Assembly: GCA_946631295.1 (NCBI GenBank)
Contig: CAMOZY010000004.1
Span: forward strand, 2,316-66,315
Length of the DNA: 64,000 nucleotides
DNA from: an uncultured Lachnospiraceae bacterium
GTDB lineage: Bacteria > Bacillota > Clostridia > Lachnospirales > Lachnospiraceae
Direction: 5' to 3'
This document shows, piece after piece, positions 2,803-7,045 of the stretch. Positions within the stretch are counted from its first letter, which is position 1. The number at the start of each line of letters is the position of its first letter. The notes beneath the pieces were generated by a model. That model saw only the letters and a program-made list of their open reading frames with translations, was not told the origin of the DNA and ran no database searches. Both the position numbers and the translations under genes were made by a program.

Positions 2803-5034
2803 TTAAATCTGATTTACCGGATCAAGATCGAACTGTACAAACATTCCGTTCATATCCGCATTTTCGAGGTATTCCTCGCTGACAGTGCGGATTCCGGTAA
2901 GTTCTGAAACTTCCGGGCTTTTTATATAAATAACATATCTGTAGTAGTCCTTGACCTTTGCGATATTCGCAGGTGCAGGACCGAGTACTTTTTTCGCTCC
3001 GTATGACTTTATCACATCACGCAGATCACTGGCAAGAAGTGAGGTCTTCTTTTCATCCTGGCCAAATAGCTGGAGCGCCAGAAGGTGCGTTGCGGGCGGA
3101 TAACCTGCTGACTCCCTGTATGCCATTTCCTCTTCGTAGAATTTCCCGTAATCCTGCTGTGCTGCACATACTATTGCATATGAATCCGGCTGGTATGTCT
3201 GTATCACGGCATTTCCCGGCTTGACTCCTCTTCCCGCTCTTCCCGCAGCCTGCGCAATGAGTTGGAAGGTTCTTTCCGATGCCCTGTAATCAGGAACTCC
3301 GAGTGAAAGATCAGCAACCAGTATTCCGACAAGCGTTACATTGGGGAAATCATGCCCCTTAACAATCATCTGTGTTCCGATAAGTATCTGGGCCTCTCCG
3401 TTTGAAAAAGAAGACAGTATCCTGTCATACGCTCCCTTTTCGGAGGTTGTATCCTTGTCCATTCTAAGAGTCTTCACATCGGGATACATTTTACGTATGC
3501 GATCCTCAACCTGCTCCGTACCTGCTTTTATCGCAGCCAGATACTTTGATCCGCACGAAGGACATGTATCAGGTTTTTCAGTAACTTCACCGCAATAATG
3601 GCATATGAGTCTTGAACCTGAATGGAGTGACATGGGAACCTCGCAGTGAGGACACATCATAACCTTGCCGCATTCCCTGCACGATATCTGTCCCGAGAAC
3701 CCCCTTCTGTTAAGAAAGAGCATGATCTGCTCGCCTTTGGATATCTTTTCATCCATAAGAGCTTTAAGGCGCCTTGAAAACATAGATCTGTTTCCCAAAG
3801 ATAATTCCTTTCTCAGATCTATGATCTCAGTCTGAGCAAGCTCACCTCCGCCGGCTCTTTCATTCAGTTCAAAGAGCTTTATCTCCCCCGAAAGTGCTGC
3901 CGTATAGCTTTCAAGCGAAGGCGTTGCCGAACCCATGACGAGGGATGCGCCCGATATCTCACATATCTTCTTTGCGACCTCTCTGGCATGATATTTGGGC
4001 GTACTCTCTGATTTATAACTTGCCTCATGCTCTTCATCCATGATAACAAGCCCCGTATTCGGAAAAGGAGTAAAAAGTGCAGAACGAGGACCGATTATTA
4101 TATCAATATCTCCGTTCTTTGCTCTTTCACACTGATCAAACCTTTCGCCCGGAGTCATTGAAGAATTCAGTACACTGACTCTGTCACCGAACTTCCCGTA
4201 AAATCTTGCAAGAGTCTGATATGTCAATGCTATCTCAGGGATAAGGAATATGACCTGTTTTCCCATGAGGAGGGTTTTCTGTGCAAGACGCAGGTAAACT
4301 TCCGTCTTTCCGCTGCCGGTAACCCCGTGTATCAGATATGTACCTCTGAGACCTGCATCAAGATCAGAGCAAATGGATGATACGATCCTGTTCTGACCGT
4401 CATTAAGCGATACAGGTTCTGATTCTCTGATATCTGCAATGGCAGGCTTTCTGTATTCCGAGGACGTTTCAAGATATGCGGCACCGCTCTTAACAACGGA
4501 TGCAACGGTCTGGGAGCTTACGCCAAGCTTGCCGGTGATCCAGCTGTTGGGGATCCTTTCATTTTCAGCAAGTGCCCTCAGGACCTTTTCCTTTGCAGTC
4601 TGTTTTCTGCGAAATGCTTCATCTGCAAGGGCAAGTATCTGTTCACGCTCCATCTTCCTGACAAGTGTCTTAAGCTCAATGGGCTTAGCCTTGGCCTTGG
4701 CCGGAATAACGACCTTAAGAGCCTGTGACAGGGTTCCGCCGTAGGTTTCCCTGATGTAGGAAGCAATTTCAAAGCTGACATCCTGTGCGGTGACACTGCC
4801 CTCAACTATCCCGAGGATATCCTTTATTTTATCCTCTTCCAGATCCACAGTGTCCCTTAATGCGGTGACATATCCCTTCTTTTCGGTATTTCCCGCACCA
4901 AAAGGGATCCTGACTCTGCTCCCTGCGCAAATAATACCGGATAGCCTCTCCGGTATCCGGTAACTGAATGGTCTGTCTAATTTATCAATACTGACATCTA
5001 TGATCACGTCAGCATATTTTGAGCCTTTTTCCAT
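2803..5034 (-). CDS. priA: Primosomal protein N' (PriA helicase); start likely 5034 rather than 5076
   Basis: Walker A GVTGSGKTEVY, DEEH box, zinc motifs CRECG/CPHC/CHYCG/CPSCG, QAAGRAGR. An extended -10 lies 7 nt upstream of the ATG at 5034. Confidence 0.96.
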   Translation of the reverse strand: MEKGSKYADVIIDVSIDKLDRPFSYRIPERLSGIICAGSRVRIPFGAGNTEKKGYVTALRDTVDLEEDKIKDILGIVEGSVTAQDVSFEIASYIRETYGGTLSQALKVVIPAKAKAKPIELKTLVRKMEREQILALADEAFRRKQTAKEKVLRALAENERIPNSWITGKLGVSSQTVASVVKSGAAYLETSSEYRKPAIADIRESEPVSLNDGQNRIVSSICSDLDAGLRGTYLIHGVTGSGKTEVYLRLAQKTLLMGKQVIFLIPEIALTYQTLARFYGKFGDRVSVLNSSMTPGERFDQCERAKNGDIDIIIGPRSALFTPFPNTGLVIMDEEHEASYKSESTPKYHAREVAKKICEISGASLVMGSATPSLESYTAALSGEIKLFELNERAGGGELAQTEIIDLRKELSLGNRSMFSRRLKALMDEKISKGEQIMLFLNRRGFSGQISCRECGKVMMCPHCEVPMSLHSGSRLICHYCGEVTEKPDTCPSCGSKYLAAIKAGTEQVEDRIRKMYPDVKTLRMDKDTTSEKGAYDRILSSFSNGEAQILIGTQMIVKGHDFPNVTLVGILVADLSLGVPDYRASERTFQLIAQAAGRAGRGVKPGNAVIQTYQPDSYAIVCAAQQDYGKFYEEEMAYRESAGYPPATHLLALQLFGQDEKKTSLLASDLRDVIKSYGAKKVLGPAPANIAKVKDYYRYVIYIKSPEVSELTGIRTVSEEYLENADMNGMFVQFDLDPVNQI

Positions 5035-5084
5035 ACAACAGATTATATCATATATTTTGCTGTTCGCCCTCTGCATATTAAGAC

Positions 5085-5170
5085 AACGAAAAAGAGCTCC
5101 GGACGAATCCGCAGCTCTTTTCCGTTTCTTATGAGGGGGGAGAATAACTAACTCTTATTAGTTATCTTGA
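5085..5170 (-). ncRNA. Candidate trans-acting small RNA (5' hairpin, C-rich anti-SD core, intrinsic terminator)
   Basis: -10 TATAGT (5180-5175); 8-bp stem ATAACTAA/TTAGTTAT (5144-5165); TCTCCCCCCTCAT; terminator AAAAGAGC...GCTCTTTTT; no ORF. Confidence 0.6.
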
Positions 5171-5174
5171 TATG

Positions 5175-5206
5175 ACTATAAAATAAAAATGTGTCATAAA
5201 TGTGTC
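5175..5206 (-). promoter_or_regulatory. Promoter with an 11-bp-period direct repeat (GACACATTT x2) in place of the -35; probable OmpR/PhoB-type regulator site
   Basis: GACACATTT at 5206-5198 and 5195-5187, then TATAGT at 5180-5175. Confidence 0.55.
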
Positions 5207-5278
5207 CGAACTCTGATAAAAAAATAAAAAGAATTAAGAAACTATAAACTAATTTTCAGTTTCCGTGAAAATCCCGTA

Positions 5279-7045
5279 TTATCGGTAATATCTGAGCCTG
5301 TAGTCTATGTATTCGTTTCCTTTGTAAACGTTAAGATTTAACTCATAACATATATCCAGATCGATTTTTCCGATTCCGGAGTAAACTTTTTCGGCCGTTC
5401 CGGGGCCGAATTTTGTGTCAATATACTTATCCAGAGCATCCATATCGCCAAAATATGTCACCTTAAAGCTTCTTCCTGAACTTACAGCTGTGAGATTTCC
5501 GTATTGTTTTTCTTTTCCCATACGGGATATGCCCTTAATGGTAACGGTTGTTGCAAACAAAGCTCCCGGATTGCCTGCACCCACAGGCTCCAGCTTTTCA
5601 AGATCTTTGACCAGCCTTACAGTTGCATATTCAAGAGGAACACGGGCATCAAATCTCACTTCCCTGTAAAGATCCTCATCCTGCAGTCCTGCGTTTTCAT
5701 TAAGCCTTCTCCTGAGTTCAGAAAGATTGCTTTCTTCAAGAGAAAAGCCCGCAGCCATTGCATGACCTCCAAACTTGGTAAAAAGTTCCTTAACCTCGGA
5801 CATTTTCTCGAACATATTATATGCGGGTATGGACCTGCCTGAACCCTTAAGGCCTTCCTCTCCTCTTGTCACGACCAGAACAGGCCGGTTATAGCTTTCC
5901 TTGATTTTGCCTGCAACAAGTCCGGCAATACTTTCATGGAGCTCCGGAAGATAGATGACCAGCACTTTTTCGGACAGCATGTTTTCGGATTCTATCATGG
6001 AAACAGCTTTTTTGGTGCCTGTAACAGTCATATTCTTCCGTGAATCATTAAGTTCTCTTATGCGAAGAGCATCAGCAAGACACTTATCATAATCTTCCGA
6101 AAGAAGCAGATTGACAGATTCACCCGCACTTTCAAGTCTTCCAGTAGAGTTTATGCATGGTCCTATGACAAAGGAAAGAGAATACGCGGACAGATGGGTT
6201 CCATCAAGTCTGTTGGCGTTCATAAGAGCCCTGATACCGCTGTTTTTGGTACTTTCCATCTGCCTGATGCCTTCCCGCACCATTACCCTGTTCTCATCAC
6301 AAAGATCCATGACATCACAGGCAGTGCCAAGTGCAGCAAACTGAATGCATTCCTCAAGGGCGTTTTTCAACGCTTGCGAAGGATATCTATCCAAAAGTGC
6401 AGACATGAACTTATATGCGACCATTGCACCGCATATTCCCTTGTAAGGATATGCACTTCCCTCCCTGTGAGGATCAACCACAGCTTCGCAGACAGGAAGG
6501 ATTTCATTTCTGTTACCGTTACCGTCATCCAAAAAATGAACCTGATGATGATCCGTAACAATAACCTTTATAGAGAGTTCATATGCAAGGGCAATCTGTG
6601 AAGCAGCCGCTATACCGTTATCACATGTGATGATAAGATCTATTCCGTCTTCAGCACATTCTCTCACAAGATCATCGTTTATTCCGTAGCCGTCCTTAAG
6701 TCTGTGAGGTATGGCATAGGAAACGATGCCTCCTGCTGCTTCTATACACTTTACGAGGATGTAGGTCGAAGTAACCCCGTCAACATCATAATCCCCGATG
6801 ATGCGGATCTTTTCACCGCCATCTATTGCTGATATAAGTTCTGCAACTGCTTTCTCCATATCAGGAAGAAGGAACGGATCATGAAACAGCTCTTTTCCGC
6901 CTTCAAGATATTTTCTTGCATCTTCAATATTTTCCGCACCGCGGTTTCTTATAATACGGGCAAGGAGAGGATCTATTCCCAGCTCTTCTCCCCATTTGAT
7001 GAAATCTCCGCCCTTTCTTATCTCAAGCCATCTGTCCATGTTCAA
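5279..7045 (-). CDS. recJ: Single-stranded-DNA exonuclease RecJ
   Basis: GDYDVDG, TCDNG, TDHH (DHH), GPCINSTGRL, KGSGRS, FGGHAMAAG. Confidence 0.96.
   Translation of the reverse strand: MNMDRWLEIRKGGDFIKWGEELGIDPLLARIIRNRGAENIEDARKYLEGGKELFHDPFLLPDMEKAVAELISAIDGGEKIRIIGDYDVDGVTSTYILVKCIEAAGGIVSYAIPHRLKDGYGINDDLVRECAEDGIDLIITCDNGIAAASQIALAYELSIKVIVTDHHQVHFLDDGNGNRNEILPVCEAVVDPHREGSAYPYKGICGAMVAYKFMSALLDRYPSQALKNALEECIQFAALGTACDVMDLCDENRVMVREGIRQMESTKNSGIRALMNANRLDGTHLSAYSLSFVIGPCINSTGRLESAGESVNLLLSEDYDKCLADALRIRELNDSRKNMTVTGTKKAVSMIESENMLSEKVLVIYLPELHESIAGLVAGKIKESYNRPVLVVTRGEEGLKGSGRSIPAYNMFEKMSEVKELFTKFGGHAMAAGFSLEESNLSELRRRLNENAGLQDEDLYREVRFDARVPLEYATVRLVKDLEKLEPVGAGNPGALFATTVTIKGISRMGKEKQYGNLTAVSSGRSFKVTYFGDMDALDKYIDTKFGPGTAEKVYSGIGKIDLDICYELNLNVYKGNEYIDYRLRYYR

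What the first reader, a model, noticed from the sequence alone, without database searches (positions are those of the whole stretch)
5085..5206. Unannotated small RNA with an exposed anti-Shine-Dalgarno core, under a direct-repeat (response regulator) promoter
Seen: on the minus strand between recJ and priA are GACACATTT twice at an 11-nt period, TATAGT, and then an ORF-less unit of about 85 nt: hairpin ATAACTAA-TAAGAG-TTAGTTAT, single-stranded UCUCCCCCCUCAU, and a terminator with a U-tract. Known: this layout matches streptococcal CiaR-dependent csRNAs (direct-repeat promoter, anti-SD loops) and C-rich staphylococcal sRNAs. Inference: a two-component-controlled sRNA that blocks G-rich RBSs. 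G-rich RBSs do occur in this window (paaK GGGGG, GH2 GGGGG, GGDEF-EAL GGGG).
Basis: partly seen in the sequence, partly recalled or inferred. Interest (0 to 1): 0.7.

Follow-up and report, generated by a model that had tools for sequence, protein, structure and literature searches.

The report
Envelope-stress small RNA gene, Lachnospiraceae family
The flagged stretch is very probably a real ~83-base small-RNA gene from a large, uncatalogued family of gut and rumen Lachnospiraceae, whose promoter carries the same regulator box as the stress protease gene htrA, so it is probably the RNA arm of an envelope-stress response.

Summary
Comparative data show it is a gene. The unit is a hairpin, an invariant single-stranded CUCCCCCCUCAUAAG tract and a terminator. 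It recurs in 87 distinct sequences from named Lachnospiraceae and in 107 of 401 genera sampled. The hairpin shows compensatory changes, and every copy has its own terminator.

The family has a short form (~85 nt, as here) and a long multicopy form (~150 nt). Neither matches Rfam 15, and I found no paper describing them.

The direct repeat is conserved in 85 of 87 promoters (consensus ggACACA-N4-ggACACA). It lies about 9 nt upstream of the -10 box, and no -35 box is present.

The same box lies upstream of htrA in 28 of 30 sRNA-bearing genera and upstream of VTC-DUF4956-CotH operons. It resembles the Bacillus CssR box TTTTCACA.

Blocking of ribosome-binding sites remains an inference. The best predicted target in this genome is not conserved in relatives.

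This is a new family of a known kind of regulator. Other agents of this scan had already noted the long form.

The parts
5187..5207 (-). Two direct repeats, (G)GACACATTT and GACACATTT, with an 11-nt period. They occupy about -39 to -22 relative to the predicted start. This is the putative response-regulator box and takes the place of a -35 element.
   Evidence: Sequence. CAYA-N7-CAYA is present at this position in 85 of 87 unique family promoters. The same box lies upstream of htrA in 28 of 30 genera.
5175..5180 (-). -10 box TATAGT. The hexamer 17 nt upstream reads ACATTT, so there is no -35 match.
   Evidence: Sequence. The family consensus is TAtnaT about 9 nt after the proximal ACACA. The simple sigma-70 scan finds no full promoter here.
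5086..5168 (-). Predicted sRNA transcript, about 83 nt. Both ends are inferred from the -10 box and the terminator, not mapped.
   Evidence: Homologues appear. No Rfam 15 family matches.
5143..5166 (-). 5' hairpin (10 bp, loop AAGA).
   Evidence: Fold. All 87 homologues fold a 5' stem-loop in this segment, in 39 distinct sequences; a minority of the single-sequence folds pair differently. Over the six basal pairs, 99.4% of cells are paired. There are 22 cells with changes on both sides, against 3.0 in shuffles. Four of 6 pairs show compensatory change.
5127..5142 (-). Single-stranded C-rich core CUCCCCCCUCAUAAGA. It is complementary to GAGG/GGGG-type Shine-Dalgarno sequences and, through CAU, to AUG.
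   Evidence: Unpaired in both the MFE and centroid folds. CCCCCCTCATAAGAA is invariant in the 87- and 60-sequence alignments, though those sequences were fetched by an exact pattern containing this core. The independent covariance-model hits also keep CUCCCCCC(C)UCAUAA.
5085..5126 (-). Intrinsic terminator: an 18-bp interrupted stem, then a U-tract.
   Evidence: Fold. Every homologue has a terminator hairpin of -15 to -47 kcal/mol with a different sequence.
5232..5264 (-). Upstream conserved AT-rich element GGAAACTGAAAATTAGTTTATAGTTTCTTAATT. It may be an UP element or a second operator. Whether it belongs to the unit is uncertain.
   Evidence: Conserved in the same-genus loci L009-L019. Other genera have TTTTAGA/TTAAGA-rich sequence at the same place. 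Not analysed further.

Best explanation
Window 5168-5086 (minus strand) is a stand-alone gene for an ~83-nt trans-acting small RNA. It is the short form of a large Lachnospiraceae sRNA family.

How it is switched on (inferred). Transcription starts at a promoter with a -10 box but no -35 box. It therefore depends on an activator bound to two CACA-core direct repeats, 11 bp apart, that overlap the -35 position. This is the geometry of OmpR/PhoB-family response regulators. The same box heads htrA, the extracytoplasmic quality-control protease, in most genera that carry the sRNA. It resembles the Bacillus subtilis CssR box TTTTCACA. The activator is therefore most likely a CssR/CiaR/LisR-like envelope or secretion-stress response regulator.

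How it acts (inferred). Once made, the RNA presents the invariant tract CUCCCCCCUCAUAAG between a protective 5' hairpin and the terminator. The tract most likely pairs with G-rich ribosome-binding and start regions of mRNAs and lowers their translation.

Shown here: the gene structure, its conservation and covariation, the conserved box and its presence at htrA and VTC operon promoters.

Inferred only: the identity of the regulator, the inducing signal, the pairing mechanism and the targets.
For: Anatomy and fold:
-.

Conservation:
- About 17 of 24 same-genus genomes carry it.
- About 92 real loci were found in named Lachnospiraceae, including Acetatifactor, Eisenbergiella, Waltera and isolates P6A3 and AC2028.
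- 107 of 401 genera match the covariance model, often with 2-4 copies.
- At order level, 13 of 14 hits fall in the same family.

Structure:
- 39 distinct hairpin sequences with compensatory changes.
- All copies have terminators.

Independence from neighbouring genes:
- RecJ is upstream on the same strand in 47 loci and downstream on the opposite strand in 11.
- Long-form copies sit among unrelated genes.

Promoter box:
- 85 of 87 promoters carry it. Consensus: tttggACACAnttTggACACAtTTtt-N4-TAtnaT.
- Of 139 matrix hits (score >= 17) in 983 kb of fetched loci, 137 are sRNA promoters.

Regulon:
- In 28 of 30 htrA loci the best same-strand hit lies 62-203 nt upstream of the start codon. Consensus: atCACA-N7-CACAatT-N6-TAnAcT.
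- At least 10 of 30 VTC operons carry TTCACA/ACACA repeats at an 11-nt period.
- Five of these operons lie next to an OmpR-type two-component system.
- The canonical CssR box is TTTTCACA (PMC6749698).

Pairing potential:
- The best target in the genome scores -30.3 kcal/mol. Sixteen shuffled sRNAs give -24.9 +/- 1.6, lowest -28.3.
Against: - There is no expression evidence.
- In the window's own genome the box occurs strongly at only one other place, a VTC gene remnant.
- The genome's HtrA-like gene shows no obvious CACA direct repeat on reading its upstream sequence, and the genome-wide matrix scan lists no hit there. None of nine OmpR-type regulator genes has a box upstream.
- No two-component system is linked to the sRNA gene.
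- The best predicted target, an Rce1/CPBP-like membrane protease gene, loses the complementarity even in the closest relative: -16.4 kcal/mol in G001 and none in the others.
- An 18-nt tract invariant across more than 100 genera is more conserved than most sRNA seeds. That would also fit a protein-binding site.
Confidence: 0.6

Rival explanations
1. The RNA is real but does not act by pairing with mRNAs. In this reading the invariant C-rich tract, with the sequence-conserved base of the hairpin (GAUAG/CUAUC), is a binding site that titrates or recruits a protein. Candidates are a KH-domain or other poly-C-binding protein, or Rho. Alternatively it pairs with one universally conserved RNA.
For: - The ~15-18 nt from CUAUCU to CAUAA(G) are almost unchanged across 107 genera. 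That is stronger conservation than is usual for sRNA seeds.
- Part of the hairpin stem never varies (pairs 12-36 and 13-35).
- No conserved mRNA target was found.
Against: - Known C-rich Firmicute sRNAs (RsaE/RoxS, LhrC, csRNAs) all act by pairing with RBS regions. This rests on general knowledge and on papers listed.
- The long form carries a second CU-rich single-stranded tract, CUCUCAUUCCUUU, typical of multi-seed pairing sRNAs.
- No candidate protein partner was identified.
Confidence: 0.17
2. The direct repeats are not a response-regulator site. They would be recognised by another kind of transcription factor or by an alternative sigma factor, or the promoter would be constitutive with the repeats acting as a repressor operator.
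For: - The regulator was not identified.
- No regulator gene in the own genome has the box upstream.
- No two-component system is linked to the sRNA genes.
Against: - Head-to-tail repeats with an 11-bp period that end 9-10 bp before the -10 box and replace the -35 box are the classic OmpR/PhoB class II activator layout (established knowledge).
- The box resembles the CssR box.
- It heads htrA, a hallmark target of CssR, CiaR and LisR.
- It lies between an OmpR-type two-component system and the VTC operon in several genera.
- It does not fit the SigD, sigma-54, sporulation-sigma or Spo0A consensus sequences. I compared these by eye from memory.
Confidence: 0.12
3. The unit is a cis-acting feature of its neighbours: a long structured 3' UTR and terminator of recJ, or a leader or attenuator of priA.
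For: - It lies 110 nt after the recJ stop codon and about 10-50 nt before priA, on the same strand.
- The recJ-sRNA-priA order is widespread.
Against: - In 11 loci the unit is inverted relative to recJ and priA.
- Many copies lie elsewhere among unrelated genes.
- It has its own conserved regulated promoter.
- It has a strong terminator, and priA has its own TATAAT box after it.
- Multicopy and tandem copies exist.
Confidence: 0.03

Closest known systems
csRNAs (cia-dependent small RNAs, ccnA-E) of Streptococcus, under the CiaRH two-component system
   Same: - Short, ORF-less RNAs with their own terminator.
- The promoter has a direct repeat at an 11-bp period about 10 bp upstream of the -10 box and no -35 box.
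- They occur in several copies per genome.
- They are co-regulated with htrA.
- The single-stranded region is complementary to SD sequences and to AUG.
   Different: - There is no sequence or structure homology: no Rfam match at E <= 10.
- The box is nCACA-N7-CACA, not TTTAAG-N5-TTTAAG.
- The core is a C6-7 run.
- The host family is Lachnospiraceae (Clostridia).
- The regulator is not identified.
LhrC1-5 of Listeria monocytogenes (Rfam RF00616), under the LisRK envelope-stress system
   Same: - Multicopy sRNAs, partly in tandem, with exposed CU-rich (UCCC) motifs.
- They are induced by an OmpR-family envelope-stress two-component system that also controls htrA.
- They repress mRNAs of surface and secreted proteins at the RBS.
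   Different: - No Rfam match.
- The architecture differs: here one C-run (two CU tracts in the long form) lies between hairpins, whereas LhrC has three UCCC motifs.
- Targets are unknown here.
CssRS secretion-stress regulon of Bacillus subtilis (htrA, htrB; CssR box TTTTCACA)
   Same: - The box has a CACA core, repeated, at htrA promoters.
- The regulator is of the OmpR family.
   Different: - To my knowledge no sRNA is a known member of the CssRS regulon.
- Orthology of the Lachnospiraceae regulator to CssR was not shown. NCBIfam gave only generic OmpR-family matches.
RsaE/RoxS (Rfam RF01820) of Bacillales
   Same: A C-rich single-stranded motif that pairs with G-rich SD sequences. The RNA is conserved at family level and controlled through a two-component system (ResDE/SrrAB).
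   Different: - No Rfam match.
- Different regulators (ResD, Rex) and different boxes.
- RsaE has several UCCC motifs and a metabolic regulon.

Membership tests
csRNA (CiaR-dependent sRNAs, Streptococcus) | Match to the Rfam csRNA covariance model | tested here: not met
   No match at the gathering score. No match among hits up to E = 10 on 4950-5350.
csRNA (CiaR-dependent sRNAs, Streptococcus) | CiaR box TTTAAG-N5-TTTAAG about 10 bp upstream of the -10 box | tested here: not met
   The box is GACACA-N5-GACACA (family consensus ggACACA-N4-ggACACA). Geometry is the same but the sequence differs.
csRNA (CiaR-dependent sRNAs, Streptococcus) | Shares its promoter box with htrA (same regulon) | tested here: met
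   Met at family level: 28 of 30 htrA loci carry the box 62-203 nt upstream. Not met in the window's own genome.
LhrC (RF00616) | Match to the Rfam model; three UCCC motifs in loops or single strands | tested here: not met
   No Rfam match. The RNA has one C6 run (short form), or a C-run plus CUCAUUCCUUU (long form).
RsaE/RoxS (RF01820) | Match to the Rfam model | tested here: not met
   No match up to E = 10. The best sub-threshold hit was sau-5971, 23 bits against a gathering score of 90, driven mainly by the terminator.
Trans-acting base-pairing sRNA (general class) | Independent transcription unit (own promoter and terminator, no ORF), conserved regardless of neighbours | tested here: met
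Trans-acting base-pairing sRNA (general class) | Detected transcript of the predicted size | not testable with these tools
Trans-acting base-pairing sRNA (general class) | Conserved complementarity to target mRNAs | tested here: inconclusive
   The best target scores -30.3 kcal/mol, beyond all 16 shuffles, but it is not conserved in relatives. No multi-genome prediction was possible.
OmpR/PhoB-type response-regulator-dependent promoter | Tandem direct repeats at a 10-11 bp period overlapping or replacing the -35 box | tested here: met
OmpR/PhoB-type response-regulator-dependent promoter | Identified cognate regulator binding the box | not testable with these tools
   Only circumstantial evidence exists. 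The box lies next to an OmpR-type two-component system at VTC operons in 5 genera. The closest homologue in the own genome is at C6:27632-29590.
Pho regulon (PhoP/PhoB box) | Same box as pstS promoters | tested here: not met
   pstS promoters of the family carry TTTACA-N5-TTTACA and score <= 8 with the sRNA-box matrix.

The most novel reading that the evidence does not exclude
The 15-18-nt tract CUAUCUCCCCCCUCAUAA is nearly invariant across more than 100 genera. It may not be tuned to individual mRNAs. Instead it may act as a stress-induced anti-Shine-Dalgarno in trans, or as a decoy for a conserved C-rich-RNA-binding protein. When the CssR-like sensor detects misfolded exported proteins, this would globally slow translation initiation of a class of G-rich-RBS mRNAs, for example those of exported or membrane proteins. 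That would make the family the main post-transcriptional arm of the Lachnospiraceae envelope-stress response, alongside HtrA and the unexplained VTC-DUF4956-CotH operon.
Probability: 0.15. Interest if true: 0.8.

Novelty: new member of a known kind. Interest (0 to 1): 0.6.

Why it matters
Lachnospiraceae are among the most abundant gut and rumen bacteria, yet in the searches made here I found no paper describing a small RNA of this family. This family occurs in about a quarter of genera, often in several copies. It comes with a readable regulatory logic: the same box sits at htrA, at the sRNA genes and at VTC-DUF4956-CotH operons.

That gives three things that can be tested directly:
- an envelope or secretion-stress regulon for the family;
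- a candidate sensor system;
- a first functional handle on the enigmatic bacterial VTC/DUF4956/CotH gene cluster.

The family would also extend the arrangement 'envelope-stress two-component system + htrA + multicopy C-rich sRNAs', known from Streptococcus (CiaRH) and Listeria (LisRK), to Clostridia. That would suggest either convergence or an ancient Firmicute design.

Tried and rejected
1. PhoP/Pho-box hypothesis. It was prompted by TTCACA repeats at VTC operons. I rejected it because pstS promoters carry a distinct TTTACA-N5-TTTACA box and score low with the sRNA-box matrix.

2. Spo0A (reverse 0A box TTCGACA), SigD, sigma-54 and sporulation sigma factors. I compared these by eye. The conserved bases (ACACA) do not coincide with their critical bases.

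3. A second sRNA at own-genome C53:12883, the only other strong box in the genome. It turned out to be the 39-codon remnant of a VTC-domain gene that is intact in relative G022.

4. A linked two-component system next to sRNA copies. None was found.

5. Autoregulated regulator genes in the own genome. No box lies upstream of any of nine OmpR-type genes.

6. The CPBP/Rce1-like gene as a conserved target. It is not conserved.

7. An over-strict pattern search (GGACACA twice, exact) gave zero hits and wasted one search.

8. NCBIfam naming of the VTC-linked regulators gave only generic OmpR-family hits, the best being RppA below its cut-off.

9. Text searches for the core sequences and for Lachnospiraceae sRNAs found nothing relevant.

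10. MAFFT/RNAalifold could not align the terminators. I therefore assessed them one sequence at a time.

Full report
**Observation.**
- GACACATTT at 5206-5198 and 5195-5187, an 11-nt period;
- TATAGT at 5180-5175;
- a 10-bp hairpin at 5166-5143;
- a single-stranded CUCCCCCCUCAUAAGA at 5142-5127;
- a long terminator hairpin with a U-tract at 5126-5085.

The 91-nt stretch folds at -34.5 kcal/mol. Shuffles give -15.2 +/- 2.8, so z = -6.8. There is no ORF of 30 aa or more on that strand. The hexamer 17 nt upstream of the -10 box reads ACATTT, and the sigma-70 scan finds no full promoter. The promoter therefore lacks a -35 element.

**It is a conserved gene.**
- The unit is single-copy in its own genome.
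- BLAST finds it in about 17 of 24 genomes of the same genus.
- An exact-pattern scan of 185,579 species for the core (CTCCCCCC-N0-1-TCATAAGAARC) returned 100 loci. About 92 have the full architecture, and almost all of these are labelled Lachnospiraceae or its genera: Acetatifactor, Eisenbergiella, Waltera intestinalis and W. hominis, Lachnoclostridium sp., and the rumen isolates P6A3 and AC2028. The few real loci under broader or other labels include two bins labelled Bacteroidales. Eight hits are chance matches in other phyla.
- Among 87 distinct sequences, every one folds a 5' stem-loop, in 39 different sequences, and a terminator of -15 to -47 kcal/mol.
- The six basal pairs of the hairpin are paired in 99.4% of cells. 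There are 22 cells with changes on both sides, against 3.0 +/- 1.6 in shuffles, and at most 54% of cells pair when partners are slid. RNAalifold finds compensatory change at 4 of 6 pairs.
- The core C6-TCATAAGAA is invariant in these alignments, but those sequences were fetched by an exact pattern containing that core. The covariance-model hits, which did not require it, also keep CUCCCCCC(C)UCAUAA.

**Distribution and forms.** A covariance model of hairpin plus core hits 107 of 401 Lachnospiraceae genera, often with 2-4 copies that are sometimes clustered. In a sample of 301 genomes drawn from the order, 13 of 14 hits are in the same family.

The family has two forms:
- The short form (~85 nt) is the one in the window.
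- The long form (~150 nt) is multicopy. After the C-run it has a second hairpin closed by AGUAAAG/CACUUUACU. A second single-stranded CU-rich tract, CUCUCAUUCCUUUAGAUAAC, and a terminator follow.

Neither form matches any Rfam 15 family. Text searches found no description of it. Earlier agents of this scan independently noted the long form in other genomes. I treated those notes as leads only.

**It is an independent unit, not a cis element.** A RecJ homologue lies within 4 kb in 57 of 94 loci. It is upstream on the same strand in 47 and downstream on the opposite strand in 11. The RNA gene therefore sits in the recJ-priA gap in either orientation. Other copies lie among unrelated genes, including AsnC, a metallo-beta-lactamase, DUF1538, GH25, a methyltransferase and EamA. 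One locus has two tandem copies.

**The promoter.**
- CAYA-N7-CAYA occurs at the expected place in 85 of 87 promoters.
- The consensus is tttggACACAnttTggACACAtTTtt-N4-TAtnaT. The repeats occupy roughly -39 to -22.
- A weight matrix built from 70 distinct boxes gave 139 hits (score >= 17) in 983 kb of fetched loci. Of these, 137 are sRNA promoters.

Tandem repeats at an 11-bp period that end 9-10 bp before the -10 box and replace the -35 box are the layout of OmpR/PhoB-type class II activation (established knowledge).

**The regulon.** In the own genome the only other strong box with a -10 box is at contig C53:12883. It heads a 39-codon remnant of a VTC-domain gene. In relative G022 the same box heads an intact VTC-DUF4956-CotH operon (Pfam).

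Of 30 VTC orthologues fetched from other genera, about 10 have their best-in-locus box 80-135 nt upstream of the start codon. Many show 2-5 TTCACA/TACACA repeats at an 11-nt period. In five genera an OmpR-type regulator and kinase pair lies directly beside this promoter.

I first suspected PhoP. However, pstS promoters of the family carry a different box, TTTACA-N5-TTTACA, so I rejected that idea.

A note from an earlier agent said the long form shares its promoter signature with htrA. I tested this. For the Trypsin_2/HtrA genes of 30 sRNA-bearing genera, the best same-strand matrix hit in the 3.4-kb locus lies 62-203 nt upstream of the htrA start in 28 of 30 cases. The htrA consensus is T.atCACA.ttt.aaCACAatT-N6-TAnAcT. 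It has the same core and spacing as the sRNA box.

The canonical CssR box of Bacillus subtilis is TTTTCACA (PMC6749698). CssRS, CiaRH and LisRK are the Firmicute envelope and secretion-stress systems that control htrA. CiaRH and LisRK also control multicopy C/U-rich sRNAs (csRNAs and LhrC). That last point rests on established knowledge.

The most economical reading is that this RNA family belongs to the regulon of a CssR/CiaR/LisR-like system.

**Limits in the window's own genome.** Its HtrA-like gene (Trypsin_2 + PDZ) shows no obvious CACA direct repeat on reading its upstream sequence, and the genome-wide matrix scan lists no hit there. None of its nine OmpR-type regulator genes has one upstream.

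The closest homologue of the VTC-linked regulators is at C6:27632-29590. It is 45-49% identical to them, against 30-34% for its paralogues. It lies downstream of a second VTC/DUF4956 pair, whose promoter has a different repeat, TTAAGGTTC twice. The cognate regulator therefore remains unidentified.

**Mechanism.** The exposed tract contains CCUC and C6, which are complementary to GAGG/GGGG-type Shine-Dalgarno sequences. It also contains CAU, which is complementary to AUG.

I scanned 9,360 candidate start regions of the genome. The best duplex is with the 5' region of an Rce1/CPBP-like membrane protease gene (Pfam).
- It scores -30.3 kcal/mol. The scan mean is -9.4 +/- 3.4. The minima of 16 shuffled sRNAs average -24.9 +/- 1.6, with the lowest at -28.3.
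- It uses both UCAUAAGAAA and UAUUCUCCC.
- The pairing decays to -16.4 kcal/mol in the nearest relative and is absent in the others.

Other candidates include a LacI-family regulator with GGGGGGAGAAUAC at its RBS. G6 runs at RBS positions are rare: 14 in the genome.

Translational repression by RBS occlusion is thus the best-supported mechanism by analogy. It is not shown, and the extreme invariance of the tract leaves room for a protein-binding role.

**Verdict.** The element is a new family of a known kind: an envelope-stress, response-regulator-dependent, C-rich small RNA. It works like csRNAs and LhrC but is a member of neither family.

Noticed in passing
L136:170-365 (own genome C53:12869-13064, outside the window): This is the only other strong copy of the CACA direct-repeat box with a -10 box in the genome. 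It heads a 39-codon remnant of a VTC-domain gene that runs into a terminator. The intact VTC-DUF4956-CotH operon with the same box is in relative G022 (L138, L244).
   Followed up: yes
L169-L178 (other Lachnospiraceae genera): The long (~150 nt) multicopy form of the same RNA family. It has a second hairpin and a second CU-rich single-stranded tract, CUCUCAUUCCUUUAGAUAAC. There are up to 3-4 copies per genome, some within a few kb of each other.
   Followed up: partly
L179-L208 and L239-L243: VTC-DUF4956-CotH operons of many genera carry 2-5 TTCACA/TACACA repeats at an 11-nt period in their promoters. In five genera they lie directly beside an OmpR-type regulator and kinase pair. This is a possible first regulatory handle on this unexplained gene cluster.
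   Followed up: partly
own genome C6:24790-24840 (outside the window): A second VTC/DUF4956 pair lies upstream of a two-component system (C6:27632-29590). Its promoter has a different direct repeat, TTAAGGTTC twice at an 11-nt period, 8-10 nt before TATACT. This resembles the streptococcal CiaR box TTTAAG-N5-TTTAAG.
   Followed up: no
window 5232-5264 (minus strand): Conserved AT-rich element GGAAACTGAAAATTAGTTTATAGTTTCTTAATT, about 25 nt upstream of the direct repeats. It is conserved across the genus. Other genera have TTTTAGA/TTAAGA-rich sequence there. It could be an UP element or a second operator.
   Followed up: no
window 5030-5076 (minus strand): The longest priA ORF starts at 5076, inside the tail of the sRNA terminator. 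An in-frame ATG at 5034 lies only 7 nt after a TATAAT box (5047-5042), which suggests a very short or absent leader for priA.
   Followed up: no
L209-L238: pstS promoters of Lachnospiraceae carry clear Pho boxes, TTTACA-N5-TTTACA, sometimes in 3-4 repeats. The window's own genome gave no PstS (TIGR02136) match.
   Followed up: partly
L087, L105: Two contigs with typical Waltera-type copies of the sRNA come from bins labelled Bacteroidales and Odoribacter splanchnicus. They are probably mis-binned Lachnospiraceae contigs.
   Followed up: no
L025, L026, L042, L064, L079, L116: A subgroup of the short form has promoters with GTTCATAAA-type repeats (up to four at an 11-nt period) mixed with AGACACA. 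These resemble the HssR/TorR-type half-site GTTCATA. This is either drift of the same box or a change of regulator.
   Followed up: no
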